Both the position numbers and the translations under genes were made by a program. Positions 4,151 through 22,002 of a stretch of DNA of 64,000 nucleotides are shown piece by piece (the stretch's first letter is position 1; every line of letters starts with the position of its first letter). This DNA is from a virus, in the IMG/VR virus record IMGVR_UViG_3300035703_000049, positions 1 to 64,000 of that record; one strand, 5' to 3'. The notes below the pieces were generated by a model that saw only the letters and a list, made by a program, of their open reading frames with translations, was not told the origin of the DNA and made no database searches.

Positions 4151-5112
4151 GAATTTTAGTTTGTGGCGGACATGGATTTATTGGAAACAATATCACATAT
4201 AAACTAATGCAGCAAGGACATGATGTTGCTGTAGTGGATAATCATAATAACTACGGTGAAACCCCAAATTGGGAATACAATTCTGTTATGTCATCTAGAT
4301 TAAATCATATTGGAACTCACACTTTTTATACAGTGGACGTTACATCTGCTGTCGCGTTAGATAATATCTTTAAAAAATGTAATCCTGAAATAGTAATTTA
4401 TCTTGCAACTTACCCAAATGCACGAATGGTTAAGCGTAATGTAGTTGATGCTACGCATAATATGGTTGGTGCTGTTGCCACTACTCTTGATCTATGTGTA
4501 AAGTATAAAATTAAACGTTTTGTAATGGCAAGCAGCAGCATGGTTTATGGTGATTTTGGCGAAGCTGCCCCGGTTGAAACTATCAACTGCAACCCACTTA
4601 CGCTTTATGGTAGCTATAAGCTACAAGGCGAGCAAATGTGTAAGATATGGCACAAAGAACATGGTCTTGAATACACATTGTTAAGACCAAGTGCCATTTA
4701 CGGTGTACGTGATGTTATAGTACGTGCCATTTCTAAAATGACTGTAAACGCACTAACAACAAAAACTATTAAAGTTATTGGTGTTAACAATCGTTTGGAC
4801 TTTACGTGGGTTGAAGATGTTGCAGATGGTTTTATTACAGCAGCATTTGCACCAGAGGCAGCAAATGAAATTTACAACTGCACAAGAGGTTATGGACGAA
4901 GTTTACGAGAAGCTGCTGAATTAGTTGCACGTCGAGTACCAGCAGAAATTATCGAACTACCTGCAGATAACTTTTATCCAAATCGTGATACCCTTAACAG
5001 CGACAAGCTTAAAGCACTTGGTTGGAATCCTAGTGTTGATATTGAAGAAGGCGTCAATCGTTATTTAGATTGGTTCTTAGCTCAACCTTTTATTGATAAG
5101 TTGAAACCATAA
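4147..5112 (+). CDS. NAD-dependent nucleotide-sugar epimerase/dehydratase (extended SDR)
   Basis: GGHGFIG, ASSSMVYG, YGSYK, DFTWVED; 3' end overlaps the convergent gene by 31 bp. Confidence 0.92.
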   Translation: MRILVCGGHGFIGNNITYKLMQQGHDVAVVDNHNNYGETPNWEYNSVMSSRLNHIGTHTFYTVDVTSAVALDNIFKKCNPEIVIYLATYPNARMVKRNVVDATHNMVGAVATTLDLCVKYKIKRFVMASSSMVYGDFGEAAPVETINCNPLTLYGSYKLQGEQMCKIWHKEHGLEYTLLRPSAIYGVRDVIVRAISKMTVNALTTKTIKVIGVNNRLDFTWVEDVADGFITAAFAPEAANEIYNCTRGYGRSLREAAELVARRVPAEIIELPADNFYPNRDTLNSDKLKALGWNPSVDIEEGVNRYLDWFLAQPFIDKLKP

Positions 5113-6389
5113 AGAGAATAATAGTAATCCTCTAACCATTTCCAATCAAAACTTAATTGCAATTTATCTAAAGCGCCATTAACACTGTTATAGTAGTTGA
5201 TGGCGTCTTTTGCACCTTGTAAGCAATACTCAGCATTATCACCTTCAGCATATGTTAACCAAACATGCAATCTATGTTGTATTTCTATGTCAGTCCCTGC
5301 ATCAACTTCTTGTTTCAGTTTTAACACTTCCCTAAAAGCACTACGCCATGTTATCCAAGGATCTGTATTAAATCTAGATATACTTGCACAAATTGGTATA
5401 ACTGCATGAGCGGAACTTAATGTAAAATCAATACCTGGGTTAGTATCAAGCACTAATTGTTTATTATATAAATTGATATTCATTGCACCGTATTCTAATC
5501 CATTTAAAGGATTGCGACTATGAAAAATGTAATGCTTTGGTTCTTGCCAATAGTCTGGACTAAAATCAAACTTAAAACTAGATAATACTTCTGTTTTAGC
5601 AAATACAGCAAAGAACCATGGTGTATCGCTTAACATTGCTGCTGCTTTATAAGCAGCTTCTCGCCCAGTTATTCCATCACTGCGTTTTGCTCTTGGACAT
5701 AACGTTTTTAGATTATTCCAATTTGTTTCTGCTATTGGTTCATTATTGGAAATAAAAATAACATCGCTAAGTGTATTGTCTATTATTTGTTTCTTTTCAA
5801 GATATGGATAATCATATACTTGTTTTTGTAAGTAAGTTTTAACGTCTCTTGGCACTAAAGAAACTCTATTATCATTGCTTATTCCGTAAGCAATACGTTT
5901 ATGCCATAAATTAGGTTCAATATTTGTAGTACCGTTTAATGACAAATACAATGAGGGGAAATTAGCATTTATAATTTCTTGTGTTATATTTTCTGTAGTA
6001 GTGTTAATAACTGGCCAAGGTAATCTCTGTACACCGTTACTATGCCAATTAATATCATTATACCATTCTAATAATTCAACATTTTCCTGTTTCTTAAATT
6101 CTTTTACATTAACTAAAAATGTATCACCAAACTTTTGATTACCGCTTGCCCAACAATGTATTTGCTTTTGTTCCCACGGTGTTGGAATGTAATTAAAATC
6201 AAAGTTAGCGTAATCACAGCAACTAGAAATAAGCCAAAAGAATTCTGTACGTGATCTGTTTGAAGCACGTTTTACCATTTCTAGATGTGTAGTCATATAA
6301 CGCATAGTTTGGGCATGTGGCAGCTTCGACAATATCTGCTTAACGTTTTCATCATGTCCACCCATATCCATTATAAACACATCAAACAT
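5082..6389 (-). CDS. Two-domain glycosyltransferase-like protein (GT-A-like, degenerate DxD)
   Basis: C-terminal half aligns by eye with 16347-17258 (AKRSDGI..AYKAAA..SDT; NPLNGLEYG; WRSAFREVLKL); N-terminal half looks like a diverged copy of the same domain. Confidence 0.55.
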   Translation of the reverse strand: MFDVFIMDMGGHDENVKQILSKLPHAQTMRYMTTHLEMVKRASNRSRTEFFWLISSCCDYANFDFNYIPTPWEQKQIHCWASGNQKFGDTFLVNVKEFKKQENVELLEWYNDINWHSNGVQRLPWPVINTTTENITQEIINANFPSLYLSLNGTTNIEPNLWHKRIAYGISNDNRVSLVPRDVKTYLQKQVYDYPYLEKKQIIDNTLSDVIFISNNEPIAETNWNNLKTLCPRAKRSDGITGREAAYKAAAMLSDTPWFFAVFAKTEVLSSFKFDFSPDYWQEPKHYIFHSRNPLNGLEYGAMNINLYNKQLVLDTNPGIDFTLSSAHAVIPICASISRFNTDPWITWRSAFREVLKLKQEVDAGTDIEIQHRLHVWLTYAEGDNAEYCLQGAKDAINYYNSVNGALDKLQLSFDWKWLEDYYYSLYGFNLSIKG

Positions 6390-7542
6390 TTGAACTGTGC
6401 CTGTATCCTGGTTGCAAGAACTTTATTTGCTGCTCACGCCAATCCCAATCTGACCAATGATAGTCGTATGTTGCGCTTACATCATCTACTTCTATCTTGT
6501 ATATGTCTAAGTAATCCCCCATACGATCAATAATGTATTGGAAATCTTTAGTACCAAAGCTACCTTGCAAATCAACTTGACCAAGTGGCAAGTAGCCTAA
6601 ACTTAACTCAGCATTATTAGGTGTATATCCGTTTACACGTAACCATGTATCAAAACCATACATTTCATCACGATGCCATTGATCATGTCGTGTTACACTG
6701 CGTCCCCACTCAATGTCAAACTCACCTGAATAGTACTGTAACTCTGTAATTGCATCGCATGTAGTCTTATCTATTCTAGGTGCGCCCTCGTCTCGATATA
6801 CTTCGTAAAGTGTTTTACCAATTTGACACCAATGCATATAAACACCGCCAAATTCTCTATCGTATTGATTAATGTTAAACAACTCTCTGTCTGACGTTGT
6901 TAAGTTGTAGCGAGGTGCGCTTAACCATGTAGTAATTTGACTTGGCCGTATCCAATTTGGATCAAATGCCTTTTTACGTTGGCTTAAGCATAAGCTTTCT
7001 ACCTCATGGCATAAGTTGTTTAGTTGTCTTATTGCCCACTTAGCATCATCAGTTGCATGTTTATAATAAGGACTTAATTGCTCAACAGTACCTTGCAATA
7101 TTTCAAAGTGATTATGCAGCTTATTCATAATACCGTGCTTTAATGCAAGAGAAAGGGCTAACTCTTCTCTAATACCTTTTGCATACAATTCTTCTGTCAT
7201 CCCCATACCATATACATTGGGGAAACGAACAGCATCAGGCGTAAAGTGTTCCTCAATAACATATGGGTCTAAACCTGCATTTATCCAAGTACTTTGCACA
7301 TGCGGCATGTTTATAGCTTGTATATTACGATTAAGTTCATTACACAAATAAACTAATGTACGTGGACTATTTGGCCAACCATGCCAACAGTAATTCTTTT
7401 CTAATATGTTGCCGCTAGTTAGTAATTCCTTTAAAGCAACTATCCATTTGTGTGATAACTCGTGATCTAGTGAAAAAATGTTATAATCAATTGTATGACC
7501 TGTTCTATAGTCTCGCAATACTACTTTTACTTTAGATGGCAT
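6382..7542 (-). CDS. Hypothetical protein in radical SAM operon (His-rich helical motifs)
   Basis: 386-aa ORF overlapping both neighbours; LHNHFE, LNNLCHE, YMHWCQIGK. Confidence 0.7.
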   Translation of the reverse strand: MPSKVKVVLRDYRTGHTIDYNIFSLDHELSHKWIVALKELLTSGNILEKNYCWHGWPNSPRTLVYLCNELNRNIQAINMPHVQSTWINAGLDPYVIEEHFTPDAVRFPNVYGMGMTEELYAKGIREELALSLALKHGIMNKLHNHFEILQGTVEQLSPYYKHATDDAKWAIRQLNNLCHEVESLCLSQRKKAFDPNWIRPSQITTWLSAPRYNLTTSDRELFNINQYDREFGGVYMHWCQIGKTLYEVYRDEGAPRIDKTTCDAITELQYYSGEFDIEWGRSVTRHDQWHRDEMYGFDTWLRVNGYTPNNAELSLGYLPLGQVDLQGSFGTKDFQYIIDRMGDYLDIYKIEVDDVSATYDYHWSDWDWREQQIKFLQPGYRHSSNV

Positions 7543-8845
7543 CCCACCATTCCTTTATTTTTGGTATGAAAGATAGTGCGTCACTCATAGTGAAACTATC
7601 GCCGCGCCTTTTTTCAAGTTCTAATATTCTAGCTTTACCTTGCCATAATCCAATTATGTATTGCTCAGGCCACTGCTCTTGAAAAGTTGGTCGTTTAAGT
7701 AAATTCTCTAACGTATCAATTAATGAACCGTGTCGCTTATATCTTAGTTCTAAATCACTTATCCAATACTCAACCAGATCTGTTAGTAATGGGCGAGGCA
7801 GCGCAAGCGGACTCATAATAATGTCTGAAGTAAATGCAAACACTACTTTAGTTAGGATATCTACACTATACTGATCTGCAAACCTAACATAATCATTAAG
7901 TACCATCATACCCGGTAACGTAAGTGTTAAATCTAAACGTAATTGTCGTGGGTGTGTTACATATTTTGATCCTATACTAAGATTGTGAGAAAATACATCA
8001 AAATTTAATCCAGTACGTATGTATTCACCAACTGGACCTGTAGCATCTAAACTTGCACATACTTGCCAATCCTTAAAGTATGACAATAGTTCAAACAAAC
8101 ACACAGATTTTGAATGATCTTTGCTTATATGCTCTGTGTGCCAAACACTATGTAAGTTAGTGTTATATCGTACATAAACATTTTTACTAATACCATGTTT
8201 AACCATGTACTTCATCATTTCCCAATGCTCTGGCCAGTCCAACGGTTCTCCACCAACCCAATATATTTCCTCTATGCGTTCTTCTTTAATAGCACGCCAT
8301 AGTTCTTCAATAGCTACTGTCCGCTGAAACTGGGTAATTTGCCTTCTAACGTTTGACACAGCCCATGGATTATCTTGTTCAAAGTTTGTATTGTGTTGAC
8401 GTTCTTCGCTTTCCCATGCACTGCTTAATGGTGGCCCGCACATACGACATTTAAATGTGCATAAGTTAGATATGCGATAATCATAACTTATAGGTAATCC
8501 TTTGTGTGTGCCATCTGGTAGTGTTTGTGCAAGCAGTTGTTCACGCTTGCTACCAAACATTCCTTCAAAGTAATCTCTATATACGCTAGTGTTTAACAGC
8601 TTCTTGTTGCACACTTCACATTCAGGCAGTTCTTCACCCGCCATCATGCGTTTACGAACACTTTTCATGTGATTGCTGTTCCAATGTTCCTCTAGCGTAG
8701 TTGGACGATATTCATTCGTGCCTGCACTTGTGTCTATGTATTGTTTAAAGTTCTGTGCCGGTTCGCGACTTGCACAGCACAAACGCCTTTCAGTTTGTGG
8801 AGATAGATATGTGTGAGTCCAAGGTGCTAAACAATGCTTATTCAT
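7532..8845 (-). CDS. Radical SAM enzyme with N-terminal SPASM/twitch-like domain
   Basis: CTFKCRMC, GGEP, YNTN, YIRTG; N-terminal CLAPW..CC..CEVC. Confidence 0.9.
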   Translation of the reverse strand: MNKHCLAPWTHTYLSPQTERRLCCASREPAQNFKQYIDTSAGTNEYRPTTLEEHWNSNHMKSVRKRMMAGEELPECEVCNKKLLNTSVYRDYFEGMFGSKREQLLAQTLPDGTHKGLPISYDYRISNLCTFKCRMCGPPLSSAWESEERQHNTNFEQDNPWAVSNVRRQITQFQRTVAIEELWRAIKEERIEEIYWVGGEPLDWPEHWEMMKYMVKHGISKNVYVRYNTNLHSVWHTEHISKDHSKSVCLFELLSYFKDWQVCASLDATGPVGEYIRTGLNFDVFSHNLSIGSKYVTHPRQLRLDLTLTLPGMMVLNDYVRFADQYSVDILTKVVFAFTSDIIMSPLALPRPLLTDLVEYWISDLELRYKRHGSLIDTLENLLKRPTFQEQWPEQYIIGLWQGKARILELEKRRGDSFTMSDALSFIPKIKEWWDAI

Positions 8846-9401
8846 CTGCTATAGGAAATTCTTTATCTAAAGATATAATTTTGGCAACCCAAGTATGCCA
8901 TAACGGCGCATAGTGAGTCTTAGTTTTATTTAATGGCCATCTATCCGGATAATCTATGTAAGGATGCAAATCATAAAATGACATATGTGTTAATGATACA
9001 TTATACTTTGCACAAATATCTTTCATTTTTTGAACTTGATTCTTAAAATTTTGTAAGCACCAATTTTCATCATATTTTTCCATCAAGTTAATTCTATCTT
9101 TTGTAGTAGGAAGTATTTGTCGAAATCCATTTTGCTCTTTAAGTTCAAATCTTCTCCAATTAGGCCATAACACATAAATTTTATTTGGTTTATAGTGAGG
9201 AATGATTTCCTCACTCATTCTTACAAGTTGATCTGCGGAGGATCCTCTAATTCCTAAATTTATTAAATTTAATAATGCAGGCCATGCTTCGTGTTCCTCA
9301 ACTCCCCATCCCCATGTATGACTATCACCAATTGCAAAATTTTTATCTTCAATTGGAAATTGCCTAGTATTGTAGTTGAAAATCATATTATTAAATTCCA
9401 A
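8838..9401 (-). CDS. SGNH/GDSL-like hydrolase or acyltransferase
   Basis: AIGDSHTWG block I, NLGIRGSS block II, C-terminal His (THY). Confidence 0.7.
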   Translation of the reverse strand: MEFNNMIFNYNTRQFPIEDKNFAIGDSHTWGWGVEEHEAWPALLNLINLGIRGSSADQLVRMSEEIIPHYKPNKIYVLWPNWRRFELKEQNGFRQILPTTKDRINLMEKYDENWCLQNFKNQVQKMKDICAKYNVSLTHMSFYDLHPYIDYPDRWPLNKTKTHYAPLWHTWVAKIISLDKEFPIADE

Positions 9402-10525
9402 ATTTCTAAATGACTATCAGAAAATGATTGTTTCCTATATTCATCACTTTTTAAAATTCGTTCTTTAAAAATAGATAACATATTTTTCCCTGGAAGTTCC
9501 ATAAATTTAATAACAGAGTTAATTTTATTTTTATTTTGGCATTGCTTCATACGTTCACTGTAAATATATTTTACATTGTCTGGTAAGTTACGCAAGTTAA
9601 ACATTGGTGGTTCATGCAAGATATTATAATGTATATCAGTTATACCTTGCTCGAGAATCCAAGCTTCTGTTTCAGGCCAATAGTAAGAATTTTGAATATT
9701 AAATGTAGTACAAACTTGTAACTTATAAGAACTATCGATTGCTTTACGTATCACTTCTTGTGTTTCATTCCATCTAGCACCGTACCTTTGATATTCAAAA
9801 CGTTTACCAGTATCATCAATACTAAAAGCTATTTCAACTTTTTTGAAGTGTTTCCAAAGATTATTTCGTACCGGCCATATTGTTCCATTAGTATTATAAT
9901 GTATATCAATTTTAGAAGAATACCCTTTTTCAACTAATTTTTCTAATAAATCAAAATGTTCATTAATTAAAAATGGTTCGCCCCCTGTAAATTCTAAATA
10001 TTCAATATGTGGCAACGCATCTTCAAGTGCTTCCCACCAACTAGGTATCTTACGAGGCCATTGACCTTGCTTTAGTTGCTGTAATGCAAGTTCATTATTT
10101 CCATTAGCAATATCAATTTCTTCTTGAGCCCACTTACTACTACTCCAACTACCACATATACGACATTTTAAATTACAAATGTTTCCAAGTTTTAGATCTA
10201 GAAAAATGGGAGTTACATCTGTTTCCTTATATCTAATTTTTACATCTTTTAGTTTAACAAATGTAGCTTTACGTTTGCTCATTCTTCCAATAATTGATTC
10301 TTCTTGCCAACACATGTTACATCCTTTTGGTTTTTCACCTGCTAGAAATTGTTGACGCAAGTTCCTCATATAATCGCTATGTTGTGCATCATGAATAGAA
10401 TGTCCGTTATGAACACTAATTCCAGGTATACTTTCATTATATAAGCAACATGGGCGATAAGTTCCCATTGGTGTAACTTCCATACTTACCCATGGCAGCA
10501 TACAAATAGTTTTAGGCGTATCCAC
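9383..10525 (-). CDS. Radical SAM enzyme with N-terminal SPASM/twitch-like domain
   Basis: CNLKCRIC, FTGGEP, YNTNG; N-terminal CMLPW..CC..CNMC. Confidence 0.9.
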   Translation of the reverse strand: MDTPKTICMLPWVSMEVTPMGTYRPCCLYNESIPGISVHNGHSIHDAQHSDYMRNLRQQFLAGEKPKGCNMCWQEESIIGRMSKRKATFVKLKDVKIRYKETDVTPIFLDLKLGNICNLKCRICGSWSSSKWAQEEIDIANGNNELALQQLKQGQWPRKIPSWWEALEDALPHIEYLEFTGGEPFLINEHFDLLEKLVEKGYSSKIDIHYNTNGTIWPVRNNLWKHFKKVEIAFSIDDTGKRFEYQRYGARWNETQEVIRKAIDSSYKLQVCTTFNIQNSYYWPETEAWILEQGITDIHYNILHEPPMFNLRNLPDNVKYIYSERMKQCQNKNKINSVIKFMELPGKNMLSIFKERILKSDEYRKQSFSDSHLEIWNLII

Positions 10526-11822
10526 GCAAATCTCCGTATTCTAGAAATACATCCTCAAACTTTTCCTTACGAAGAGAATCTAATTGATCTGTAATTAAGA
10601 AAAATTGTTTGAGAGTATTGCTGTTATCATTACTGTTTATAAAATTAATTAATCCTTGATACCCGCTAGTTGCCCGTGTTAAGTGATCTTTATCTTTTAA
10701 CCATTCTAGTGTGCTTTGTATTTTAGAGATAGCAATATCTTTATACTTCTTTGGTAGTATATCTGATCTATAATACAATGGACTATGTAGAATGTTTATA
10801 TTAAAATCTTGTGCTTTGATAAACCCGCGTTCTGTCCAATCTCTATGAAAATCCGTAATGTGTAACAAATTAAAAACATTAACAGTTGCACTTATATAGA
10901 AATCTACGTTAGGACAAATTTGCAACATCTCTTTACGGTTATCCTCAATGTCTGTCCATATTGTACCTTTACGCATATATTCAGCACGCGAACCCATCGC
11001 ATCTAAACTAGCACCAACACTAACGCTGTCAAATTTTTTCCACCACTCTAATACGTTTTGTTTTTTAAACTTAAGTTCACTGAAGTTAGTATTGTATATC
11101 AAACGAACATTTGTACGATTGTTTTCCACTAACCACTTAAGCAGCTTGTAATGCTCTTCCATAATAAGAGGCTCGCCGCCAGCAAAATAAATTTGTTCAA
11201 TGTATGGAAGATGTGGTTGCATTTGTTCCCAAATGTCATCTTTATTTTTACCAGCATGTAAAAACTTGTTATGTCCTATTTTTTCAACACCGTATAATGC
11301 GGCTTTGTCTTCCCACCAATTGCTGCTAAAATTAGGTCCGCAATAACGACATTTAAAGTTACATATGTTGCTAAAGCGAACGTCCCAATACCTTATCTTA
11401 AATTTTGGATTAGTGCCATCTTCTGTTGTTGCACTTACATCTTTAATATGATGACCAAAGTGTTTGTTACTGCTGTTACGCATACTAAACAATCCAACTT
11501 TTTCATCATCATAGCAGCGTTTGCATTCAGCACAAGGTTTATCTTGTAACATATTGCGTCTTACAGTTTTATACTGCTCGTTATTCCAAACAGTTTCCAT
11601 TGAATCTTTTTGAAGATTACCAACTGGTATATTTGACATACAACATAAAAAAGCTTCGCCTGTTGGCCAACCATGCATATGCAACCAAGGCAACATACAA
11701 AAATGTTTGCTTTCAATTAAGTTGTATTTTTCTTCTTCGCTTAAATCATCTAATGAGATATTGATAGGAATACGAGAACCATAGTTATAAGTTTCGTAGT
11801 ACTTTTTTATTTCATCACTCAT
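10512..11822 (-). CDS. Radical SAM enzyme with N-terminal SPASM/twitch-like domain
   Basis: CNFKCRYC, FAGGEP, YNTN; CMLPW..CC..CKRC; likely start MSDEI at 11822. Confidence 0.9.
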   Translation of the reverse strand: MSDEIKKYYETYNYGSRIPINISLDDLSEEEKYNLIESKHFCMLPWLHMHGWPTGEAFLCCMSNIPVGNLQKDSMETVWNNEQYKTVRRNMLQDKPCAECKRCYDDEKVGLFSMRNSSNKHFGHHIKDVSATTEDGTNPKFKIRYWDVRFSNICNFKCRYCGPNFSSNWWEDKAALYGVEKIGHNKFLHAGKNKDDIWEQMQPHLPYIEQIYFAGGEPLIMEEHYKLLKWLVENNRTNVRLIYNTNFSELKFKKQNVLEWWKKFDSVSVGASLDAMGSRAEYMRKGTIWTDIEDNRKEMLQICPNVDFYISATVNVFNLLHITDFHRDWTERGFIKAQDFNINILHSPLYYRSDILPKKYKDIAISKIQSTLEWLKDKDHLTRATSGYQGLINFINSNDNSNTLKQFFLITDQLDSLRKEKFEDVFLEYGDLRGYA

Positions 11823-13141: not shown

Positions 13142-13553
13142 GTAATATTGCCATATCTCTTGATAGTATAAACAATGGTTTTTGAATTTTAAATTTAAAT
13201 ACACCCTTAAACGCCATAAATCCACCAGTACCGGTTATGATTTGATTGTCATTTGTAGTGTATGTACCAAGTTCATCTATTTCAGGCCAAAAATCAAAAC
13301 CTCTATGGTCTATACGTTTAATTATCACTGCTAAATCTTCAATAATTTGTCCGTTTACAACTTTAGTATCATTTCGTTCTTTATTTAGAAATTCAATATC
13401 AAAACAACGATTTTGTAACGTAAGTATAAATGGGATGACAGTTCGTTCTTTTAAATCAATTGTTTGACTTTGATCTGATGTTGTAATTTTAATTAATGGA
13501 CATTTATTAGGCAAACAAATTGGTTCTAAAGTAATTTCAATTTTTTCACCCAT
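13134..13553 (-). CDS. Small beta-rich hypothetical protein, paralogue of 60028-60495
   Basis: DTKVVNGQIIEDLAVIIKRI resembles ETIVDSNGKIIRDRSFEIEKI. Confidence 0.65.
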   Translation of the reverse strand: MGEKIEITLEPICLPNKCPLIKITTSDQSQTIDLKERTVIPFILTLQNRCFDIEFLNKERNDTKVVNGQIIEDLAVIIKRIDHRGFDFWPEIDELGTYTTNDNQIITGTGGFMAFKGVFKFKIQKPLFILSRDMAILHG

Positions 13554-15006
13554 GTATGCCTCCTTGATTGTTTATCATCTTCATGTGTCCATCGACCATA
13601 TTTTCAAAATCACTAATGAAATCTAATTCCTTGCACAGCTCAACTAATCGCTTAAAGCGTTCAGCTCTTACATTGAAAGTGTTTTCGGGATACTTGTTAC
13701 TTACCCAATTATAAGTTTGGTATCCGTTAACTATATGCTGTTCTATTTCTAATTCCTCAAGCATCTTAGGACTAGTTGATGGCGTGCCATCAAGTAACTG
13801 AAATACCCCAGTTGGAATAATTTGAAGCATTTGATCTTTAGCTAAATGTTTATATTTCTTTATGAGATTAAGAGTGTCCTCATAATCTTGTTCTGTCTCA
13901 GTTGGATACCCTACAAACATAAACCAACTTTGTTTAATATTATTATTAAACAATTGATACGTACAATAATCAATATCAGCATTACTAAACTTTTTACCCA
14001 TGTGATCTCGTACTGATTCGCTACCGCTTTCAATTCCTATCTGCACACGATAAGCGCCACCTTTTGCCATTAATTTGAAATCATTTTTAGGCATTTGATT
14101 TTGAGGACGACAAATAAGTTGTCCTCTGTATTTTATAGTATATGGAATTTCTTCTGCTAGTTTTGTGTTCATAGCACGTAATTCTTTAGTATTGCCATTA
14201 ATCAAACTATCAGTAAATCTAAAATATTTAAAGTTATAGTTCTTATAATAATGTATCAATTCTTCTGCAACTCTTGTACCATTTCTATAACGAAATTTTG
14301 GCCAGTGTTTTCCTATATCACAAAACGTACATTTACGTACACATCCTTTACTAGCTGTAATTGGTATAGCAAAGTATTCATCATCAAGATCATGCATATA
14401 AGAACTAAGATTATAATCACTAAAGTCAGGTAGTGGGACTACATCTAGTTCGTTATTTGTTAACTGTGGTATTTGTACAACACCTGTTAAATTGTTTTTA
14501 ATTACATCAACAATTGCTTTTTCGCCTTCACCAAGAACAACCACATCTGCAATACCAGAATCAAGCATAAGTTGATACCAATTGCTTTGCCATTGTGATT
14601 GATATACATTTGTTCCTTGACCACCTAGTACAATTTTCTTAGCAGGGTTTTCTTGCTTAATAAAATACGCTAAATCCTCTGCTGCACGCTGACTATCTTT
14701 AGTAAACACGCTAATACCAATATAAGGAATATTTGTTTGTGCTATTACTTTTGCATGTTGATGCATCCAATCTTTATAGTTTTCCCATTCAGTAATATTT
14801 GGTTTTGATATAGGATGTTGCATCCAAGCAATAATTGAATCCGTACTTATCTTAGAGTTAATGAAATCAATATTTAAATCCAATGCTTTAGCGTTAATGC
14901 CGTGTTGCGCTAAACACGCTTTTAATAAAGGCGCGGCCATTGGAGGATTAGTATTAAACATGTATGGAACATGAACTAAAAGTATATCGTGTATTAAGTT
15001 AGGCAT
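13546..15006 (-). CDS. Cobalamin-binding (class B) radical SAM enzyme, putative methyltransferase
   Basis: B12-binding-type N-terminus (PPMA..LKACL, IGISVF, IVLGG, GEGE); SKGCVRKCTFC; GIESGS; VGYPTET. Confidence 0.9.
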   Translation of the reverse strand: MPNLIHDILLVHVPYMFNTNPPMAAPLLKACLAQHGINAKALDLNIDFINSKISTDSIIAWMQHPISKPNITEWENYKDWMHQHAKVIAQTNIPYIGISVFTKDSQRAAEDLAYFIKQENPAKKIVLGGQGTNVYQSQWQSNWYQLMLDSGIADVVVLGEGEKAIVDVIKNNLTGVVQIPQLTNNELDVVPLPDFSDYNLSSYMHDLDDEYFAIPITASKGCVRKCTFCDIGKHWPKFRYRNGTRVAEELIHYYKNYNFKYFRFTDSLINGNTKELRAMNTKLAEEIPYTIKYRGQLICRPQNQMPKNDFKLMAKGGAYRVQIGIESGSESVRDHMGKKFSNADIDYCTYQLFNNNIKQSWFMFVGYPTETEQDYEDTLNLIKKYKHLAKDQMLQIIPTGVFQLLDGTPSTSPKMLEELEIEQHIVNGYQTYNWVSNKYPENTFNVRAERFKRLVELCKELDFISDFENMVDGHMKMINNQGGIHG

Positions 15007-16357
15007 TTTCTGTCCAATATTTACAATCATCCCAAAACATTTTCATTTCTGGAAACGTATTAAGAAAATTTAAACGGTGTCTTTTATCATGCTCGCTAAA
15101 AAATCTATAAAAGTCCGCTTTTAGCTTTTTATCATCATTGTGCTGTTTCATCATAGCTATAACACGATTCATACGTTGAACTTCATAGTCCTTAAATCCT
15201 TCTAGTTCCTTCATTGGAGTAGCCTGCATCCAGTCTCGGACTTGTTCAAGCTTCCACGCATATGCTTCTGGAAGTATTTGTAAGCTTTGCCAACTTGGAC
15301 TACGCAACAAAGGCGTGTCAAACCACACACGTTGATAACTGAAACTGTGCTTGATACGTAACTGCAATATCCACTCAAGCAATTCTTGTATACCAGGTAC
15401 CACTAAATTATTCATTGTAATGATAAATGTAAGACTATTACGACCTGGTATTTCAGTTAGAAAACGTTCAACATTATTTTGCAACTTCTTAAACTGCAAT
15501 CCAGGTCTAATATACTCCGCTTGATCTCCCCAAGTATCAACACTTACATACTGCATAAAATGCTCTACGTTCTCACCATCACAAATCTTTTTTACATAAT
15601 CAAGATAATGATTAAATAATCCATCATCGACACTAAAGTTTGATGTTACATTTAGGTGTAGATCTGGTTTAGGATTTTCCAATACATAATTAAAAACACG
15701 GTAAGTATTTTTATCAAGTATAGGTTCACCACCAGTCATACGGAAATGTTTTAGTTTCGGATACAAGTCTGGCCACCAACGCCAAAATGCTTCTACATAA
15801 GGGTTAAACTCCCTATTAGGTATTACACGTCTACGACCTTGGAAATGTTCGGGAGCATTATGAGGTACGGAAGTTGGATATGCCCCATACCGTTCTGCCT
15901 GTGCGGCCCATGTGGTGCTAAATTGCGGACTGCAATAACTACAAGCAAGATTACACGCATTACTAAAATTGACTTCAACGTAGTTTGGAATCTCATCTAC
16001 GGTAAACGGTTGATTACGAATTCTATCAAGATGGATAGCAGCCCAAGGCTCGCCGCTACGATAATGCCGGTCACTAAGGTTACCAGTCCGCTCGATATTC
16101 CAACAATAATTACATTCGTCACACTTAATTCCATTAAGCATTTCCTTTCTACGTTCTTTTTTATAAGGCGTGTTGTGCAAAGCACTAGGGTTAGAATCTA
16201 ATAAACTTGCATCAATTTCATGCAGTGGTGGGTGATAACAACTGTTGGTTAATCCGTTAGTTAGATGAAGACTAACTTGTTGCCACTTAGCAAGACACAA
16301 TGCATCACCAAGTTCTGCTTTCATCTTTTCTGCATCATTTAAAAAATCACTGCCCAT
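14999..16357 (-). CDS. Radical SAM enzyme, CxAKW/SCYH N-terminal subtype
   Basis: CNLACSYC, TGGEP, VTSN; CLAKW..SCYHP..CNYC. Confidence 0.9.
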   Translation of the reverse strand: MGSDFLNDAEKMKAELGDALCLAKWQQVSLHLTNGLTNSCYHPPLHEIDASLLDSNPSALHNTPYKKERRKEMLNGIKCDECNYCWNIERTGNLSDRHYRSGEPWAAIHLDRIRNQPFTVDEIPNYVEVNFSNACNLACSYCSPQFSTTWAAQAERYGAYPTSVPHNAPEHFQGRRRVIPNREFNPYVEAFWRWWPDLYPKLKHFRMTGGEPILDKNTYRVFNYVLENPKPDLHLNVTSNFSVDDGLFNHYLDYVKKICDGENVEHFMQYVSVDTWGDQAEYIRPGLQFKKLQNNVERFLTEIPGRNSLTFIITMNNLVVPGIQELLEWILQLRIKHSFSYQRVWFDTPLLRSPSWQSLQILPEAYAWKLEQVRDWMQATPMKELEGFKDYEVQRMNRVIAMMKQHNDDKKLKADFYRFFSEHDKRHRLNFLNTFPEMKMFWDDCKYWTENA

Positions 16358-17258
16358 CTAATATCATTATACCTTTGTTTTTATGCGGGGTTGCATACTT
16401 TTTAAAAAAACTACTAAAATTTGAATCATCATAGATGATATCTAAACCAAGCTTTATACTAAGTTGATCACCAAAAAATTCAAAATCTCTAGCTTCAACA
16501 TATTCATGGTGTATTAAATGATCGTTAAAAACTTTCTTTAATTCATCAAAATCATGTACTAACTTGTGATCCCAATTATCAAACATAGTCAAGTGTGTTC
16601 CCATGCGAGCACCTAACATTGCCCAATCTCCGTATTCAACATCACTTCCAATGTTATGCCATATGCTTAAATTACGCATGTTGCCAAGACTTACTCTTGT
16701 TTGGAAATCCATTAAGCTTGGTTTAACTCCTCGATCTAAGCACATCTTAACACCTTCACGAAAACCAGCACGCCATGCATGATAAGGAGATTGATTTGGA
16801 TATGTTTTGCTCCACACATCATTCATTGCTATATACCCATCGTTCCAACAAAATTCAACTGCTGTATGATCTTCACCCAAGCTTGCTTCATGGGTACGCA
16901 TATTGTTTATGAACGTTTTAGTCCAACAACTTAAACCGCCATTGCCGTATGTAAGTCCATTTATAATATTGTAAGCTTTCCAACGGAAAACATAATTTTT
17001 ATTAGTTTCATTTAATATTAATTGCTGATCAAAAAATTTTGGTTCAGGAAAGTTATCCCCATCAACTAAAACAAAACGTTCAGTATCGCTTGCTGCGGCT
17101 GCTGCTTTATGCGCTGCATCGCTGCCCTTGACTCCATCTACACGTTTAGCCCACGGAACCATAGCAGATATTTTAGCCCAAAATTCTTCTTTTCGAGGTT
17201 CATCATATGACAAATAAATGCAGTCTAAATCTGCAATATCAACTATCTCTTCTTTCAT
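16347..17258 (-). CDS. Glycosyltransferase-like protein (GT-A fold)
   Basis: IYLSYDE, RVDGVKG..AHKAAA, VLVDGDN DxD motif, WRAGFREGVKM. Confidence 0.65.
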   Translation of the reverse strand: MKEEIVDIADLDCIYLSYDEPRKEEFWAKISAMVPWAKRVDGVKGSDAAHKAAAAASDTERFVLVDGDNFPEPKFFDQQLILNETNKNYVFRWKAYNIINGLTYGNGGLSCWTKTFINNMRTHEASLGEDHTAVEFCWNDGYIAMNDVWSKTYPNQSPYHAWRAGFREGVKMCLDRGVKPSLMDFQTRVSLGNMRNLSIWHNIGSDVEYGDWAMLGARMGTHLTMFDNWDHKLVHDFDELKKVFNDHLIHHEYVEARDFEFFGDQLSIKLGLDIIYDDSNFSSFFKKYATPHKNKGIMILDGQ

Positions 17259-17580
17259 CCCATCCTCGTTCATTACCTATAATAAGCATATTACCTTTTG
17301 TAGTGTACCAAGTTGTACCTTCAACTAATGGTAACTTTTTTAAACGTATTCTTGGTATTTCTTCTAATTTTCCGTTAACAACTTTTAATTTTTTATGTTG
17401 TATATTTTGATTATATTGTTCTCTAGTTATTTCTATCCAAGGTTTATCAGTATCTTCAAATGTCCAACCATCAACTATATTGGTATCAGGATCATACGTT
17501 AATTTTATAACTATTGGTTTTGATACAGGCGCTTTATATTCAGCTAGAGCTTGTAACAAATTTTTGGTAGTTTCGTTCAT
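17239..17580 (-). CDS. Hypothetical protein
   Basis: Likely start MNETT at 17580; overlaps both neighbours in the operon. Confidence 0.6.
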   Translation of the reverse strand: MNETTKNLLQALAEYKAPVSKPIVIKLTYDPDTNIVDGWTFEDTDKPWIEITREQYNQNIQHKKLKVVNGKLEEIPRIRLKKLPLVEGTTWYTTKGNMLIIGNERGWDERRDS

Positions 17581-18394
17581 ATTCTCTAATGACATCATCT
17601 GTAATCCAATCTTTATGATGATAATGTAAAGGTAATCTTTGTTTGTAATGACCAATTAAAGGAACATGTTCATCCCATTCTGTAAAAAGTTGTTCATACC
17701 AAAGTTGCTGTTCGCTAAAACCCCATAAACCTTCTTTGCCGTGTACAAAAGTTGGAATTGATATTGGTAACGTTACATTTTGCATACCATAAATTCTTGC
17801 TGCTATTGCAAATACTTCATCAATTCTAACTCTCATATCTTCATTTTTAATTAAAAATTCTTTAGCAAACCAATTCCATTCGTTAATAATAAGTCTTATA
17901 ACGAAGAAAAATTCGCTTGCTAATTCACTATATCTAAAATACATAAACCCCGCATAAACATCAGGTAAATTGTTTACATCAAATAGTTTTCTGTGTTTTC
18001 TACTTGTAATTATGTTTTCTCTAAAATCCTTAACTTCAGTAGTTAAACAAACGTCGCGCAATCGCATTGCATTCCACCAATGATCTATTGAATGAGTTAA
18101 TAAAATATCAGCTTCAATTAATACTGTTTCTCGCCATGGTGTCAATGCAAATGCTCTGTAATATTGTGTCATATCCCAATCTTGTGGAGTATAATCTACT
18201 ACAATGACTTTATCAAAAACTTTTAAAAATTGAGGATTATTGTCTGCTGATACTTTATCTACAATTACAGCACAGTTATTAATTTTTTGAGTAAATTTAA
18301 TACTCATTGCTTGAACATACGCAAGTCTCAAATACTTTTCACCTAGTGCGAATGTTAAGTAACCTTGATCTTTTTGAAATTCACGCTGTGGCAT
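17540..18394 (-). CDS. GT8-like nucleotide-diphospho-sugar transferase
   Basis: GYLTFA..YLRLAYVQAMSIK, LTPWRETVLIEAD, YAGFMYF, DEVFAIA. Confidence 0.65.
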   Translation of the reverse strand: MPQREFQKDQGYLTFALGEKYLRLAYVQAMSIKFTQKINNCAVIVDKVSADNNPQFLKVFDKVIVVDYTPQDWDMTQYYRAFALTPWRETVLIEADILLTHSIDHWWNAMRLRDVCLTTEVKDFRENIITSRKHRKLFDVNNLPDVYAGFMYFRYSELASEFFFVIRLIINEWNWFAKEFLIKNEDMRVRIDEVFAIAARIYGMQNVTLPISIPTFVHGKEGLWGFSEQQLWYEQLFTEWDEHVPLIGHYKQRLPLHYHHKDWITDDVIREYERNYQKFVTSSS

Positions 18395-19217
18395 TATTCA
18401 ACCTTAATTGATTCATTAAGTTTGTGTCAATCGCGTAGTTTTTATTCATTATATGTAAATCATAGTTCCATAACACTGTTTCATTATCAATAGTTAAAGC
18501 CCAATGATTGGAATTATCTAATCGTGTAACGTGACCATTAACGGGTAAATTCCAAAGACCCATATTATCGTAAGTTGGAACGTTATGTAAATGACAAGCA
18601 ATACTAAAAGCTAAATCGTTTCTATATACATGTTGTGGCATGCCACACATTAACGCATAAAAAGGATAATTATCTCTCACCATTTTAGCAGTATCAAAAA
18701 TAACTTTTGACTCCATGCTATGATCATAACAAATAGCCGTTGCCCAGCGTTGTATTATATCATTGCTAGGTAAATAATCATCTAATTCCATACCAGCAGA
18801 GTTTAAGTTATATGATTTATTAAAGATACAAAAATGCGAATCAATCTTTAACCATTCCTCTAATTGATTTGAAACAATCATATAATCAGCATCTAACAAT
18901 AAAACTCTATCTGCCCACCCATAAGTATATTGAAAAACATCGATTCTTAAATCATTTTTCCATTCGTATTGAATTAAGTCGTTCCCGGCTCTTACATGTC
19001 TTTGAGAAATTTTTGTTGGTTCAGCAAATAAAATTTTAGAAAAAATTGGATATTTTTCTGCTGCAAAAATATCGTTAGTTAGTATAAATGTATCTAATCC
19101 CAAATAATACTTTACTCGTTCTGCTGCTATACTAGCTAAAGCTATATAATCTATTTCTTTACCATCAACTGTTATAGAATTATTGGCTGCGATTACACAA
19201 ATTTTACTCAAGGACAT
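18381..19217 (-). CDS. GT8-like nucleotide-diphospho-sugar transferase (paralogue of 17540-18394)
   Basis: VLLLDADY DxD motif, WATAI, RNDLAFSIA, HIMNK. Confidence 0.65.
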   Translation of the reverse strand: MSLSKICVIAANNSITVDGKEIDYIALASIAAERVKYYLGLDTFILTNDIFAAEKYPIFSKILFAEPTKISQRHVRAGNDLIQYEWKNDLRIDVFQYTYGWADRVLLLDADYMIVSNQLEEWLKIDSHFCIFNKSYNLNSAGMELDDYLPSNDIIQRWATAICYDHSMESKVIFDTAKMVRDNYPFYALMCGMPQHVYRNDLAFSIACHLHNVPTYDNMGLWNLPVNGHVTRLDNSNHWALTIDNETVLWNYDLHIMNKNYAIDTNLMNQLRLNNATA

Positions 19218-19524
19218 GTCTAATTGTCCTTACTTTAGCTAATTGATTGTATTCAATTAACCAATCATTTAGAACTTCTTGGTATCGAGCTTTTGATATA
19301 TCTAACAACTCTTTGGTATTCACTTTTCTTGGAATTTTATTACTATCAAGTAGAATAATCTCATCTTGATTTTGAAATGAATAAAGCAAACAAATTAATT
19401 CTGTATTACAAACCCAAAGCCCATTGGAGTAAGAAACAACTAGTCTGCTTAATTGTTTTTCTTCTAACATTTTTTGAGTCAAAGTTCTATTATAAGAAGT
19501 TTTAGCTAATTCTTGAATATCCAT
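19204..19524 (-). CDS. Hypothetical protein, first gene of the GT/radical SAM operon
   Basis: 106-aa ORF directly downstream of a sigma70-like promoter. Confidence 0.7.
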   Translation of the reverse strand: MDIQELAKTSYNRTLTQKMLEEKQLSRLVVSYSNGLWVCNTELICLLYSFQNQDEIILLDSNKIPRKVNTKELLDISKARYQEVLNDWLIEYNQLAKVRTIRHVLE

Positions 19525-19530
19525 TCAACT

Positions 19531-19558
19531 ATTATAATAGATTTAGTAAAATAATCAA
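19531..19558 (-). promoter_or_regulatory. Sigma70-like promoter giving a leaderless transcript
   Basis: TTGATT-N16-TATAAT-N6-ATG(19524); no Shine-Dalgarno. Confidence 0.65.
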
Positions 19559-20472: not shown

Positions 20473-20485
20473 CTACATTTTCCCT

Positions 20486-21961: not shown

Positions 21962-21994
21962 TTAATTGAATCTCCTGCGTATAGCTGCTGTACG

Positions 21995-22002
21995 TATTTA
22001 TT
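21995..22002 (-). promoter_or_regulatory. T4-like late promoter (AATAAATA)
   Basis: Intergenic, ~35 nt upstream of the ATG at 21961; a second CATAAATA lies at 22021-22028. Confidence 0.55.

What the first reader, a model, noticed from the sequence alone, without database searches (positions are those of the whole stretch)
5082..19524. Phage-encoded radical SAM / glycosyltransferase assembly line attached to the tail module
Seen: 14 overlapping, co-oriented genes directly downstream of the tail fibre genes, comprising four GT-A-like proteins (two paralogous pairs), five SPASM/twitch-like radical SAM paralogues, one B12-dependent radical SAM enzyme, an SGNH protein and small unknowns, with no RiPP precursor, protease or transporter. 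Known: twitch radical SAM enzymes such as BtrN and NeoN oxidise or epimerise sugar/aminocyclitol carbons, and class B enzymes such as GenK and GenD1 C-methylate sugars. Inference: a glycan build-and-edit pathway that decorates the virion (the S/T/N-rich fibres are obvious acceptors), or alternatively phage DNA or the host surface. Six radical SAM genes within 9 kb is far beyond model T4-like phages.
Basis: partly seen in the sequence, partly recalled or inferred. Interest (0 to 1): 0.88.

Follow-up and report, generated by a model that had tools for sequence, protein, structure and literature searches.

The report
Jumbo-phage radical-SAM sugar-tailoring operon
An uncultured giant T4-like phage carries, right behind its tail-fibre genes, a tightly packed operon of sugar-transferase-like proteins and six radical SAM enzymes, five of them from a catalogued but never-studied family; it most likely builds and chemically edits an unusual sugar decoration, but the product and its target are untested.

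Summary
On the minus strand, 5082-19524 carries 15 overlapping ORFs. Five are paralogous radical SAM enzymes with an N-terminal twitch domain, all above the NCBIfam NF033640 cut-off. There is also one B12-type radical SAM enzyme, one SGNH-like protein and two pairs of GT-A-like proteins: g13/g14 (GT8/glycogenin-like) and g11/g1 (new family, DxD motif, AlphaFold model nearest viral and bacterial GT-A enzymes).

The gene order fibre-g15-g14-g13-g11-g10-g7-g6-g5-g3-g2 recurs in most of 80 fetched IMG/VR loci (at least 596 match). Its core also occurs in the cultured Ralstonia jumbo phage RsoM2USA.

A glycan build-and-edit pathway is the best reading. Cassettes inserted in relatives are sugar-tailoring enzymes, an amino-sugar cassette converges on the operon, and bacterial homologues sit among glycosyltransferases, epimerases and PhyH oxygenases. 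No RiPP hallmark was found.

The target is unresolved. Virion fibres are favoured by linkage. DNA is weakened: ThyA is genuine and near-complete relatives have no extra hydroxymethylase. Host-surface synthesis is weakened because no operon protein has a membrane segment.

New here: the operon has its own sigma-70-type, leaderless-geometry promoter, conserved in 30 of 57 relatives, so it is not simply part of the late fibre transcript.

This scan has already found and followed up the same module on other DNA.

The parts
19531..19558 (-). Sigma-70-type promoter (TTGATT, 16 nt, TATAAT). The -10 hexamer ends 6 nt before the g15 ATG, so the mRNA would be leaderless or nearly so.
   Evidence: The same geometry (-10 ending 5-7 nt before the ATG, 16-18 nt spacer, -35 with at least 4 of 6 matches) occurs in 30 of 57 related loci, against 1% of shuffles. 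Many relatives also have a GC hairpin after the fibre gene.
19204..19524 (-). g15, a 106-aa conserved first gene of unknown function. A tail-fibre-chaperone role is a lead only.
   Evidence: Found in 56 of 80 loci at about 31% identity. It has no family hit. The protein atlas gives only viral hypothetical clusters; the nearest named one is DUF4376 at 0.89.
18381..19217 (-). g14, a GT8-like GT-A paralogue of g13 with an invariant DAD motif.
   Evidence: hhalign of the g13 and g14 families gives probability 99.1, E 1e-18. D109 and D111 are invariant. The family has no direct PDB or Pfam hit.
17540..18394 (-). g13, a glycogenin-like (GT8) GT-A protein with EAD at the DxD position.
   Evidence: The family profile hits glycogenin-1 at E 2.8e-5. 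It matches phrog_1903. It has 411 metagenome homologues, none with Pfam.
17239..17655 (-). g12, a small variable ORF in a slot that is conserved between g13 and g11.
   Evidence: Only 2 loci hold a homologue. RsoM2USA has a 184-aa ORF in the same slot.
16347..17273 (-). g11, a GT-A-fold protein of a new, very widespread family with a nearly invariant D71-G-D73 motif.
   Evidence: More than 8000 homologous clusters, none with Pfam. The AlphaFold model has pLDDT 85.5. Foldseek's best PDB hit is PBCV-1 A64R at E 6.9e-4, probability 0.99. VIA gives Z 9.2 to GT-A and nucleotidyltransferase structures over residues 10-168. BFVD hits include the Che8 glycosyltransferase.
14999..16357 (-). g10, an N-terminal-twitch radical SAM enzyme and the most conserved paralogue.
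   Evidence: NF033640 at E 1.3e-95. Median identity to orthologues is 62% in 79 loci. It is 35% identical to RsoM2USA ORF349.
13546..15030 (-). g9, a B12-binding (class B type) radical SAM enzyme and a variable accessory gene.
   Evidence: It is present in only 3 of 80 related loci.
13134..13553 (-). g8, a 139-aa ORF of unknown function with no homologue in the related loci.
11819..13225 (-). g7, an N-terminal-twitch radical SAM enzyme and the closest paralogue of g10.
   Evidence: NF033640 at E 1.6e-92. It is 31% identical to g10.
10512..11852 (-). g6, an N-terminal-twitch radical SAM enzyme and the best match to the family model.
   Evidence: NF033640 at E 1.1e-124. Pfam SPASM scores 41.4 bits, above its cut-off, at residues 52-113.
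9383..10525 (-). g5, an N-terminal-twitch radical SAM enzyme.
   Evidence: NF033640 at E 1.1e-99.
8838..9401 (-). g4, an SGNH/GDSL-like hydrolase or acyltransferase and a variable accessory gene.
   Evidence: The Ser of the GDS(H) block and a C-terminal His are invariant. The family profile hits GDSL structures at E 1.6e-7.
7532..8845 (-). g3, an N-terminal-twitch radical SAM enzyme.
   Evidence: NF033640 at E 1e-79.
6382..7542 (-). g2, a conserved protein of unknown function. The model shows a cyclophilin-like barrel with a helical insert, which is a weak assignment.
   Evidence: Orthologues were found in 24 loci. The AlphaFold model has pLDDT 84.5. Foldseek found nothing. VIA gives Z 8.7 to cyclophilin-fold chains.
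5082..6389 (-). g1, a two-domain protein. Its C-terminal half is a g11 paralogue that has lost the DxD motif.
   Evidence: BLASTP to g11 gives E 2.7e-18. The alignment shows FAK in place of DGD. g11-like and g1C-like domains are fused in one protein in more than 200 marine clusters.
2506..5112 (+). Convergent NDP-amino-sugar cassette: PIG-L deacetylase, DegT aminotransferase and a 4,6-dehydratase/epimerase-like SDR. Its 3' end overlaps g1 by 31 bp.
   Evidence: The SDR is also adjacent to g1 in L087. DegT lies 8-12 kb past the operon, convergent, in 4 of 5 large relatives.
19564..25364 (-). Context: the tail-fibre genes g16, g17, g18 and g19 immediately upstream, which are the possible acceptors.
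   Evidence: g17 has Peptidase_G2 IMC at E 2.6e-6. g17 and g19 share a C-terminal region. S/T/N/A/G content is 49-56%. A late-promoter-like AATAAATA lies upstream of g17.

Best explanation
The operon encodes a soluble, cytoplasmic pathway that assembles a short glycan and edits it by radical chemistry.

Proposed steps:
- The GT8-like pair (g14, g13) and the g11/g1 pair transfer sugars from NDP-sugars.
- Some of those NDP-sugars are amino or deoxy sugars supplied by the convergent PIG-L/DegT/SDR cassette.
- The five anciently diverged N-terminal-twitch radical SAM enzymes each carry out a distinct hydrogen-abstraction-initiated step on a sugar carbon. Candidate reactions are epimerisation, oxidation, deoxygenation or C-C bond formation.
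- The B12-type enzyme adds a C-methyl group, and the SGNH protein adds or removes an acyl group.
- The acceptor is most probably a virion protein encoded next door, namely the S/T/N-rich distal fibre protein g16 or its neighbours.
- The enzymes are made from their own sigma-70-type promoter, ahead of or independently of late fibre synthesis.

Shown here: the folds and families of the enzymes, their conservation and gene order, and the promoter geometry. Inferred: that the product is a glycan, that the radical SAM enzymes act on sugars, and that the fibre is the acceptor.
For: GT-like proteins:
- The g13 profile hits GT8 glycogenin at E 2.8e-5.
- g14 is homologous to g13, with hhalign probability 99.1.
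- The g11 model has a GT-A fold and a conserved DxD motif. Its nearest solved structure is the PBCV-1 capsid-glycosylating A64R, and its viral hits include the Che8 glycosyltransferase.
- g11 and g1C are fused in marine relatives.
- g11 and g1C flank the single radical SAM gene in RsoM2USA.

Sugar supply and tailoring:
- The convergent amino-sugar cassette is present and recurs in relatives.
- Cassettes inserted into the operon in relatives are FkbM methyltransferase, hexapeptide acyltransferase, carbamoyltransferase, UDP-glucose dehydrogenase, DegT and GDSL.
- Bacterial homologues of the radical SAM family lie among PhyH, SDR epimerases, GT1/GT4/GT2, UDP-glucose dehydrogenase and GDSL. No peptidase or RiPP element appears in the 25 commonest families.

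Link to the fibres:
- 65 of 70 loci with enough upstream flank have g16, g14 and g13 before g11.
- The only cultured phage with the module also has a g16/g17-like gene directly before it.
- g11 and g10 are far more conserved (56-62% median identity) than the fibres (37-45%), as expected of a core function rather than a sporadic auxiliary gene.

Location: no operon protein has a membrane-like segment; the highest 19-residue Kyte-Doolittle mean is 1.51.
Against: - No sugar, acceptor or product has been observed.
- The GT assignments rest on a modest profile hit (E 2.8e-5 over about 105 residues) and on middling fold scores (Foldseek E 6.9e-4, TM 0.26-0.38; VIA Z about 9). The same GT-A fold also serves nucleotidyltransferases.
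- The best solved sequence match of the radical SAM core is a peptide-modifying cyclopropyl synthase, 8vpo, at E 3.7e-7.
- The operon has its own sigma-70-type promoter, and in many relatives a terminator separates it from the fibre gene. It is therefore not co-regulated with the fibres.
- In near-complete relatives most of the 12-17 family members lie scattered next to unrelated genes. The family is therefore not tied to glycosyltransferases.
- The g2 model resembles a cyclophilin fold, which acts on proteins, although the match is weak.
Confidence: 0.5

Rival explanations
1. Host-envelope remodelling. The enzymes alter the host's LPS O-chain or capsule during infection, to block superinfection or to prevent progeny from re-adsorbing to lysed cells. 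This is the usual reading given to glycosyltransferases in the host recognition cluster of marine T4-like phages.
For: The literature reads GT8 and radical SAM cassettes in pelagimyophage host recognition clusters, and glycosyltransferase clusters in jumbo cyanophages, in this way (PMC7029224; PMC7824862). A sigma-70-type, probably early, promoter fits an exclusion function. Bacterial relatives lie in polysaccharide-like clusters with SDR epimerases, GT4, UDP-glucose dehydrogenase and ABC transporters.
Against: The operon has no membrane protein, flippase, polymerase or priming transferase, and no hydrophobic segment in any product. The core is strongly conserved in sequence and order across at least 596 viral contigs and always follows the fibre genes. 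That pattern is unlike sporadic auxiliary genes.
Confidence: 0.15
2. Direct radical modification of virion proteins. The N-twitch radical SAM enzymes act on amino-acid residues of fibre or other structural proteins, for example by epimerisation or cross-links as in RiPP maturases. The GT-like proteins then glycosylate separately or act as scaffolds.
For: The SPASM/twitch clade is dominated by peptide maturases. The best PDB sequence match is a RiPP cyclopropyl synthase. The operon is linked to the fibres. Scattered family members lie near structural and other genes in complete relatives. g2 may have a cyclophilin-like fold.
Against: No RiPP recognition element, leader-type peptide, protease or exporter was found. 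The variable cassettes in the operon are sugar enzymes. Bacterial contexts are carbohydrate-like.
Confidence: 0.12
3. Small-molecule product. The operon makes a diffusible aminoglycoside-like or nucleoside-sugar compound that acts on the host or on competitors.
For: The enzyme set of PIG-L deacetylase, DegT aminotransferase, SDR, twitch and class-B radical SAM enzymes and glycosyltransferases resembles aminoglycoside and tunicamycin-type pathways (own knowledge of BtrN, NeoN, GenK and TunB; domains). A cyanophage paper annotates similar genes as 'antibiotic synthesis' (PMC12801897).
Against: There is no scaffold-forming enzyme such as a 2-deoxy-scyllo-inosose synthase, no exporter and no resistance gene. 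The constant linkage to fibre genes would be left unexplained.
Confidence: 0.1
4. DNA or nucleotide hypermodification. The transferases and radical SAM enzymes decorate phage DNA bases with an edited sugar, as T-even phages glucosylate hmC.
For: All the enzymes are soluble and are made from an early-type promoter. The operon converges on the frd-td nucleotide genes. Radical SAM enzymes take part in thymidine hypermodification (own knowledge).
Against: The ThyA homologue is a genuine thymidylate synthase above the equivalog cut-off. A 98%-complete relative has only that one PF00303 gene and a 92%-complete one has none, so no dCMP or dUMP hydroxymethylase is evident. The GT folds resemble protein and glycan transferases.
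Confidence: 0.08

Closest known systems
NCBIfam NF033640, N_Twi_rSAM (twitch domain-containing radical SAM protein)
   Same: All five paralogues score above the curated cut-off over the full model length. They have the N-terminal four-Cys domain followed by the CX3CX2C core.
   Different: The family is only a catalogue entry, and I found no paper that reports a reaction for it. Here it forms an ordered five-member array of ancient paralogues beside glycosyltransferase-like genes in a phage. Near-complete relatives hold 12-17 copies.
Host recognition cluster of pelagimyophages and cyanomyophages (Zaragoza-Solas et al. 2020, PMC7029224) and the T4-like environmental genome with 12 radical SAM genes (Nishimura et al. 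2017, PMC5332604)
   Same: Both have a giant structural protein, then tail fibres, then glycosyltransferases (GT8 the commonest) and radical SAM cassettes in a T4-like phage. High radical SAM gene counts have been reported.
   Different: Those papers describe the genes only as variable cassettes or Fe-S clients and propose host O-chain modification. The conserved gene order, the N-twitch family identity, the g11/g1 family and the promoter are not described there. tblastn found no close homologue in cultured pelagiphages or cyanophages; RsoM2USA was the only hit.
Virus-encoded virion glycosylation: mycobacteriophage Che8/Corndog/Myrna type (Freeman et al. 2023, own knowledge; cited in PMC11256854) and chlorovirus PBCV-1 A64R
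   Same: Soluble GT-A enzymes are encoded next to structural genes. A64R is the best solved structural match of g11, and the Che8 glycosyltransferase is among its viral matches.
   Different: Those systems have no radical SAM enzymes. No glycan has been shown here. g11 has no Pfam or CAZy-type family hit.
Aminoglycoside sugar-editing radical SAM enzymes (BtrN, NeoN; class B GenK, GenD1)
   Same: It works like them only in concept: twitch-type and B12-type radical SAM enzymes beside PIG-L, DegT and SDR sugar enzymes.
   Different: In BtrN the twitch domain is C-terminal (own knowledge), whereas here it is N-terminal. No significant sequence match to BtrN or NeoN appeared in the PDB search. Membership was not shown.

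Membership tests
NF033640 N_Twi_rSAM | Full-length HMM score above the curated cut-off of 170 bits | tested here: met
   The five proteins score 268.5, 334.2, 416.6, 310.7 and 320.9 bits. This was repeated on the DNA.
NF033640 N_Twi_rSAM | Cys-rich twitch domain N-terminal to a CX3CX2C radical SAM core | tested here: met
   The Pfam SPASM match precedes the Radical_SAM match. Invariant residues are C52, C71, C110 and C113, then C164, C168 and C171, and the GGEP motif.
Full SPASM domain (two auxiliary clusters) | Seven to eight conserved Cys for two auxiliary [4Fe-4S] clusters | tested here: not met
   Only four Cys are invariant in the N-terminal domain across the five paralogues. This is consistent with one auxiliary cluster, that is, a twitch domain.
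Class B (cobalamin-dependent) radical SAM methylase | N-terminal B12-binding domain plus a radical SAM core | tested here: inconclusive
   Radical_SAM scores E 5e-18, above its cut-off. B12-binding scores 27 bits, below the 32.1 cut-off. Class-B NCBIfam models (TIGR03975, PhpK and others) match at E 1e-32 to 1e-24 but all below their cut-offs.
GT8 / glycogenin-like GT-A (g13, g14) | Sequence-profile similarity to GT8 including the nucleotide-binding N-terminal half | tested here: met
   The g13 family profile hits glycogenin-1 at E 2.8e-5 over positions 5-109. g14 is linked to g13 by hhalign at probability 99.1. No Pfam GT8 hit was found.
GT8 / glycogenin-like GT-A (g13, g14) | DxD metal and nucleotide-sugar binding motif | tested here: met
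   g14 has an invariant D109-A-D111. g13 has E-A-D with D96 invariant.
GT-A fold glycosyltransferase (g11) | Rossmann-like GT-A fold with DxD after the fourth strand | tested here: met
   The model has pLDDT 85.5. Foldseek hits are all GT-A; the best is 2p6w at probability 0.99. VIA gives Z 9.2, rmsd 3.5 over 139 residues, although nucleotidyltransferases score the same. D71, G72 and D73 are at least 90% conserved.
GT-A fold glycosyltransferase (g11) | Membership of a described glycosyltransferase sequence family | tested here: not met
   No Pfam, NCBIfam, PHROG or PDB sequence hit was found. None of the listed homologues carries a Pfam domain.
SGNH/GDSL hydrolase (g4) | Block I GDS Ser, block II Gly and block V His | tested here: met
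   S27, G25 and H163 are invariant. The profile hits 4rsh at E 1.6e-7 and TesA at 1.5e-5, over blocks I-II only. A single-sequence Pfam search found nothing.
RiPP biosynthetic cluster | Precursor peptide, RiPP recognition element, leader peptidase or exporter | tested here: inconclusive
   None was detected by Pfam, NCBIfam or PHROGs. The small ORFs g8, g12 and g15 remain unassigned.
Virion glycosylation system (mycobacteriophage / chlorovirus type) | Glycan covalently bound to a virion protein | not testable with these tools
   This needs virions. RsoM2USA is the cultured candidate.
Phage O-antigen modification (Gtr-type seroconversion) | Membrane-embedded flippase and transferase components | tested here: not met
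   No 19-residue window in any operon protein has a Kyte-Doolittle mean above 1.51. No such Pfam family was found.
T-even type DNA glycosylation | A dCMP or dUMP hydroxymethylase that supplies the acceptor base | tested here: not met
   The only PF00303 gene in the window's record and in a 98%-complete relative is a thymidylate synthase equivalog. A 92%-complete relative has none. The window's own record is only about 25% complete.

The most novel reading that the evidence does not exclude
The N-terminal-twitch radical SAM family performs a new kind of radical chemistry on protein-linked glycans. Each of the five ancient paralogues would install a different carbon-level edit. The result would be a hydrolysis-resistant, chemically unprecedented sugar coat on the receptor-binding fibres of a very large clade of aquatic jumbo phages. 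The 12-17 copies per genome would then be a diversified toolkit for post-translational virion chemistry.
Probability: 0.15. Interest if true: 0.9.

Novelty: new variant of a known kind. Interest (0 to 1): 0.66.

Why it matters
If the reading is right, a large and abundant clade of aquatic jumbo phages invests a tenth or more of its host-recognition region in enzymes that build a radically edited glycan. The scale is at least 596 IMG/VR contigs and more than 8000 protein clusters for g11 alone.

That would add radical SAM chemistry to virus-encoded glycosylation. It would give a first function to a catalogued but unstudied enzyme family that is also expanded in Bdellovibrionota and Bacteroidota. 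It could also bear on adsorption, host range and virion stability.

Ralstonia phage RsoM2USA carries the minimal module in culture: a fibre-like gene, two GT8-like genes, g11, one radical SAM gene and g1C. The question is therefore directly testable.

Tried and rejected
- **DNA similarity.** Megablast of the region against 50,697 phage records found nothing.
- **Single-sequence searches.** Pfam, PHROG and NCBIfam gave nothing for g1, g2, g4, g8, g11, g12, g14 and g15. Single-sequence and profile PDB searches for g11 gave only chance-level hits. The g14 profile against PDB gave nothing.
- **g2.** The protein atlas and Foldseek gave no usable hit. The cyclophilin-like match (Z 8.7) is within the range the tool calls common, so I do not rely on it.
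- **Recurrent accessory family.** This family is absent from this window but has 52 copies in the 80 loci. From memory it looked GT10-like by a TEK...P motif. Neither Pfam nor a PDB profile search supported that, so I dropped the idea.
- **Late promoter.** The T4 late promoter TATAAATA is not enriched: 2 matches against 13.5 expected. The promoter and terminator consensus scan over 4-23 kb is at chance level overall. Only the site before g15 gains meaning, through its conservation.
- **Neighbours of scattered radical SAM copies.** In two near-complete relatives they showed no common theme.
- **Bacterial neighbour tallies.** The adenosine-deaminase and UbiA counts among Bdellovibrionota neighbours probably reflect shared synteny of related genomes, so I did not use them.
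- **Expression data.** No RNA holder was listed for the stretch, so expression could not be examined and read laying was not used.
- **Tool availability.** The first single-protein scan of viral contigs found nothing, whereas the alignment-based scan did.

Full report
**What is there**

The minus strand from 19524 down to 5082 holds 15 mechanically listed ORFs, which I call g15 to g1. Each one overlaps the next. Directly upstream on the same strand lie three S/T/N/A/G-rich fibre genes and a 4774-aa giant protein:
- g16 at 19564-20472;
- g17 at 20486-21961, with a Peptidase_G2 intramolecular-chaperone domain;
- g19 at 22665-25364.

On the plus strand, converging on g1 and overlapping it by 31 bp, are DHFR, a genuine thymidylate synthase, a PIG-L deacetylase, a DegT aminotransferase and a 4,6-dehydratase/epimerase-like SDR. 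The window is part of an 88-kb viral record that CheckV rates about 25% complete. Near-complete relatives are 320-354 kb, so this is a jumbo-phage lineage.

**The radical SAM enzymes**

g3, g5, g6, g7 and g10 are mutual paralogues at 22-31% identity. Each scores 268-417 bits on NCBIfam NF033640, 'twitch domain-containing radical SAM protein', whose cut-off is 170. The Cys-rich domain is N-terminal to the radical SAM core. Four Cys are invariant in that domain, which fits one auxiliary cluster. The CX3CX2C and GGEP motifs are also invariant.

g9 is a B12-binding-type radical SAM enzyme that reaches no specific family cut-off.

I found no paper that reports a reaction for the N-twitch family. 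Its best solved sequence match is a RiPP cyclopropyl synthase core (8vpo, E 3.7e-7), followed by GDGT-MAS, MoaA and viperin. This places it in the SPASM/twitch clade without naming a substrate.

**The transferase-like proteins**

- g13: its family profile hits glycogenin (GT8) at E 2.8e-5.
- g14: homologous to g13 by profile-profile comparison (probability 99.1, E 1e-18), with an invariant DAD motif.
- g11: belongs to a very large family of more than 8000 clusters, typically about 60% identical, none with a Pfam domain.
  - Its AlphaFold model (pLDDT 85.5) has a GT-A N-domain with a nearly invariant DGD motif.
  - The best solved match is the PBCV-1 capsid-glycosylating A64R (probability 0.99, E 6.9e-4; VIA Z about 9).
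  - Viral matches include the Che8 glycosyltransferase.
  - These scores are modest, and nucleotidyltransferases share the fold.
- g1: its C-terminal half is a g11 paralogue without the DxD motif.
  - g11-like and g1C-like domains are fused in one polypeptide in more than 200 marine protein clusters, some with an added GT2 domain.
- g4: SGNH-like by profile, E 1.6e-7.
- g2: models well but has no convincing structural relative.

No operon protein has a membrane-like segment.

**Conservation**

An alignment-based scan of IMG/VR found at least 596 loci encoding a g11 relative. In the 80 loci fetched, the order g18-g17-g16-g15-g14-g13-g11-g10-g7-g6-g5-g3-g2 recurs.
- 65 of 70 loci with enough upstream flank have g16, g14 and g13.
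- 45 of 51 loci with enough downstream flank hold 4-7 N-twitch genes.
- 25 of those 51 show the full g10-g7-g6-g5-g3 order within the 10-kb flank.
- Orthologues are 42-62% identical, so the five paralogues are old and individually maintained.
- g4, g8, g9 and g12 are variable.

Among 50,697 cultured-phage records only Ralstonia jumbo phage RsoM2USA has the module. There the order is a g17N/g16-like fibre gene, a small ORF, g14-like, g13-like, a 184-aa ORF, g11-like, one N-twitch radical SAM gene and g1C-like. Its publication does not annotate these genes.

**What points to a glycan**

- Genes inserted into the operon in relatives include FkbM methyltransferases, hexapeptide acyltransferases, a carbamoyltransferase, UDP-glucose dehydrogenase, DegT and GDSL.
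- The amino-sugar cassette is again adjacent in one marine relative. A DegT homologue lies 8-12 kb past the operon, convergent, in 4 of 5 large relatives.
- In Bdellovibrionota and Bacteroidota genomes the N-twitch family also forms tandem arrays, up to nine in 20 kb. These lie among PhyH oxygenases (22 of 107 neighbours), further radical SAM/SPASM genes, SDR epimerases, GT1/GT4/GT2, UDP-glucose dehydrogenase, UbiA, methyltransferases and GDSL. No peptidase or RiPP element appears among the commonest families.

These are associations, not proof.

**Target**

- DNA is weakened as a target. ThyA is an equivalog-level thymidylate synthase. A 98%-complete relative has only that one PF00303 gene, and a 92%-complete one has none.
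- De novo surface-polysaccharide synthesis is weakened by the lack of any membrane component.
- The fibre is favoured only by its constant linkage to the module, including in the distant RsoM2USA.

**Regulation (new here)**

The only intergenic gap, between g16 and g15, carries TTGATT-16 nt-TATAAT, with the -10 hexamer ending 6 nt before the ATG. The same geometry, a 16-18 nt spacer (17 in most) and a -10 ending 5-7 nt before the ATG, is present in 30 of 57 related loci against 1% of shuffles. In relatives it often follows a GC hairpin after the fibre gene.

The late-promoter-like word AATAAATA stands before g17 and other structural genes but not inside the operon.

The operon is therefore a separate, probably host-RNA-polymerase-driven unit whose first gene would be translated from a leaderless mRNA. 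This fits enzymes needed before assembly. It removes co-transcription as an argument for a fibre function.

**Wider picture**

Near-complete relatives carry 12 and 17 above-cut-off N-twitch genes. Many are scattered singly beside unrelated genes and Fe-S carrier genes.

The literature had already noted glycosyltransferases (mostly GT8) and radical SAM cassettes in the host recognition cluster of pelagimyophages (PMC7029224). It had also noted a T4-like environmental genome with 12 radical SAM genes (PMC5332604). Neither came with a function.

This scan has already found and followed up the same module on other DNA. Those reports reach the same main reading. Some call the promoter late-type, one calls the operon self-promoted, and my survey supports a sigma-70-type promoter for this window and for about half of its relatives.

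**Verdict**

The glycan-editing reading is the best supported but remains inferential, at about 0.5 including the virion target. The chemistry of the main enzyme family is unknown.

It is a new variant of virus-encoded glycosylation rather than a new category. It is interesting mainly because it is widespread, strongly conserved and testable in a cultured phage.

Noticed in passing
window 19525-19563 (minus strand); related loci L002-L081 upstream of the g15 homologue: The only intergenic gap of the block holds a sigma-70-type promoter whose -10 hexamer ends 5-7 nt before the start codon. This implies a leaderless mRNA. The geometry is conserved in 30 of 57 relatives, often directly after a GC-rich hairpin that ends the fibre gene.
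   Followed up: yes
G001 (354 kb) and G002 (320 kb), reached through L028 and L032; loci L167-L180: Near-complete relatives hold 12 and 17 N-twitch radical SAM genes above the family cut-off. Most of those outside the fibre-linked array are single genes scattered next to unrelated genes: gp23, ClpP, chaperonin, DNA polymerase and Fe-S A-type carriers.
   Followed up: partly
proteins P0242-P0361 (marine metagenomes, Tara): g11-like and g1C-like domains occur fused in one polypeptide of 542-1221 aa. Some have an extra GT2 domain or 300-700 further residues without any known domain.
   Followed up: partly
related loci, e.g. L048:15765-17129, L011:12302-13336, L030 (three copies); alignment A7: A recurrent accessory protein family of 310-455 aa is inserted between the radical SAM genes in relatives, with 52 copies in 80 loci and up to three per locus. 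It has no Pfam or PDB match. It is absent from this window.
   Followed up: partly
genome loci L093-L165 (Bdellovibrionota, Bacteroidota and other MAGs): The N-twitch radical SAM family forms tandem arrays in bacteria too, up to nine copies in 20 kb in L139. It is strikingly often next to PhyH-type dioxygenases (22 of 107 neighbours in Bacteroidota-type loci). A few bacterial contigs also hold g11-like and g1C-like genes (L131, L152, L155).
   Followed up: partly
window 6382-7542 (minus strand): g2 models confidently (pLDDT 84.5) as a beta-barrel with a helical insertion. It resembles cyclophilin-fold proteins only weakly (Z 8.7), and Foldseek finds nothing, so it may be a new fold variant.
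   Followed up: partly
window 22001, 43172, 43573, 50830 (minus strand): The word AATAAATA stands shortly upstream of g17 and of three other structural or baseplate-region genes. T4's TATAAATA is under-represented in the window (2 matches against 13.5 expected). This may be the lineage's late-promoter box.
   Followed up: partly
window 25383-39707 (minus strand): A single 4774-aa ORF, a giant structural protein, lies just upstream of the fibre genes. The position matches that of VrlC-like proteins described in pelagimyophages.
   Followed up: no
window 13134-13225 and 17540-17655: The listed starts of g7 and g12 overlap the preceding genes by 92 and 116 nt. Internal ATG codons would give the 4-8 nt overlaps seen elsewhere in the operon, so the true starts are probably downstream.
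   Followed up: no
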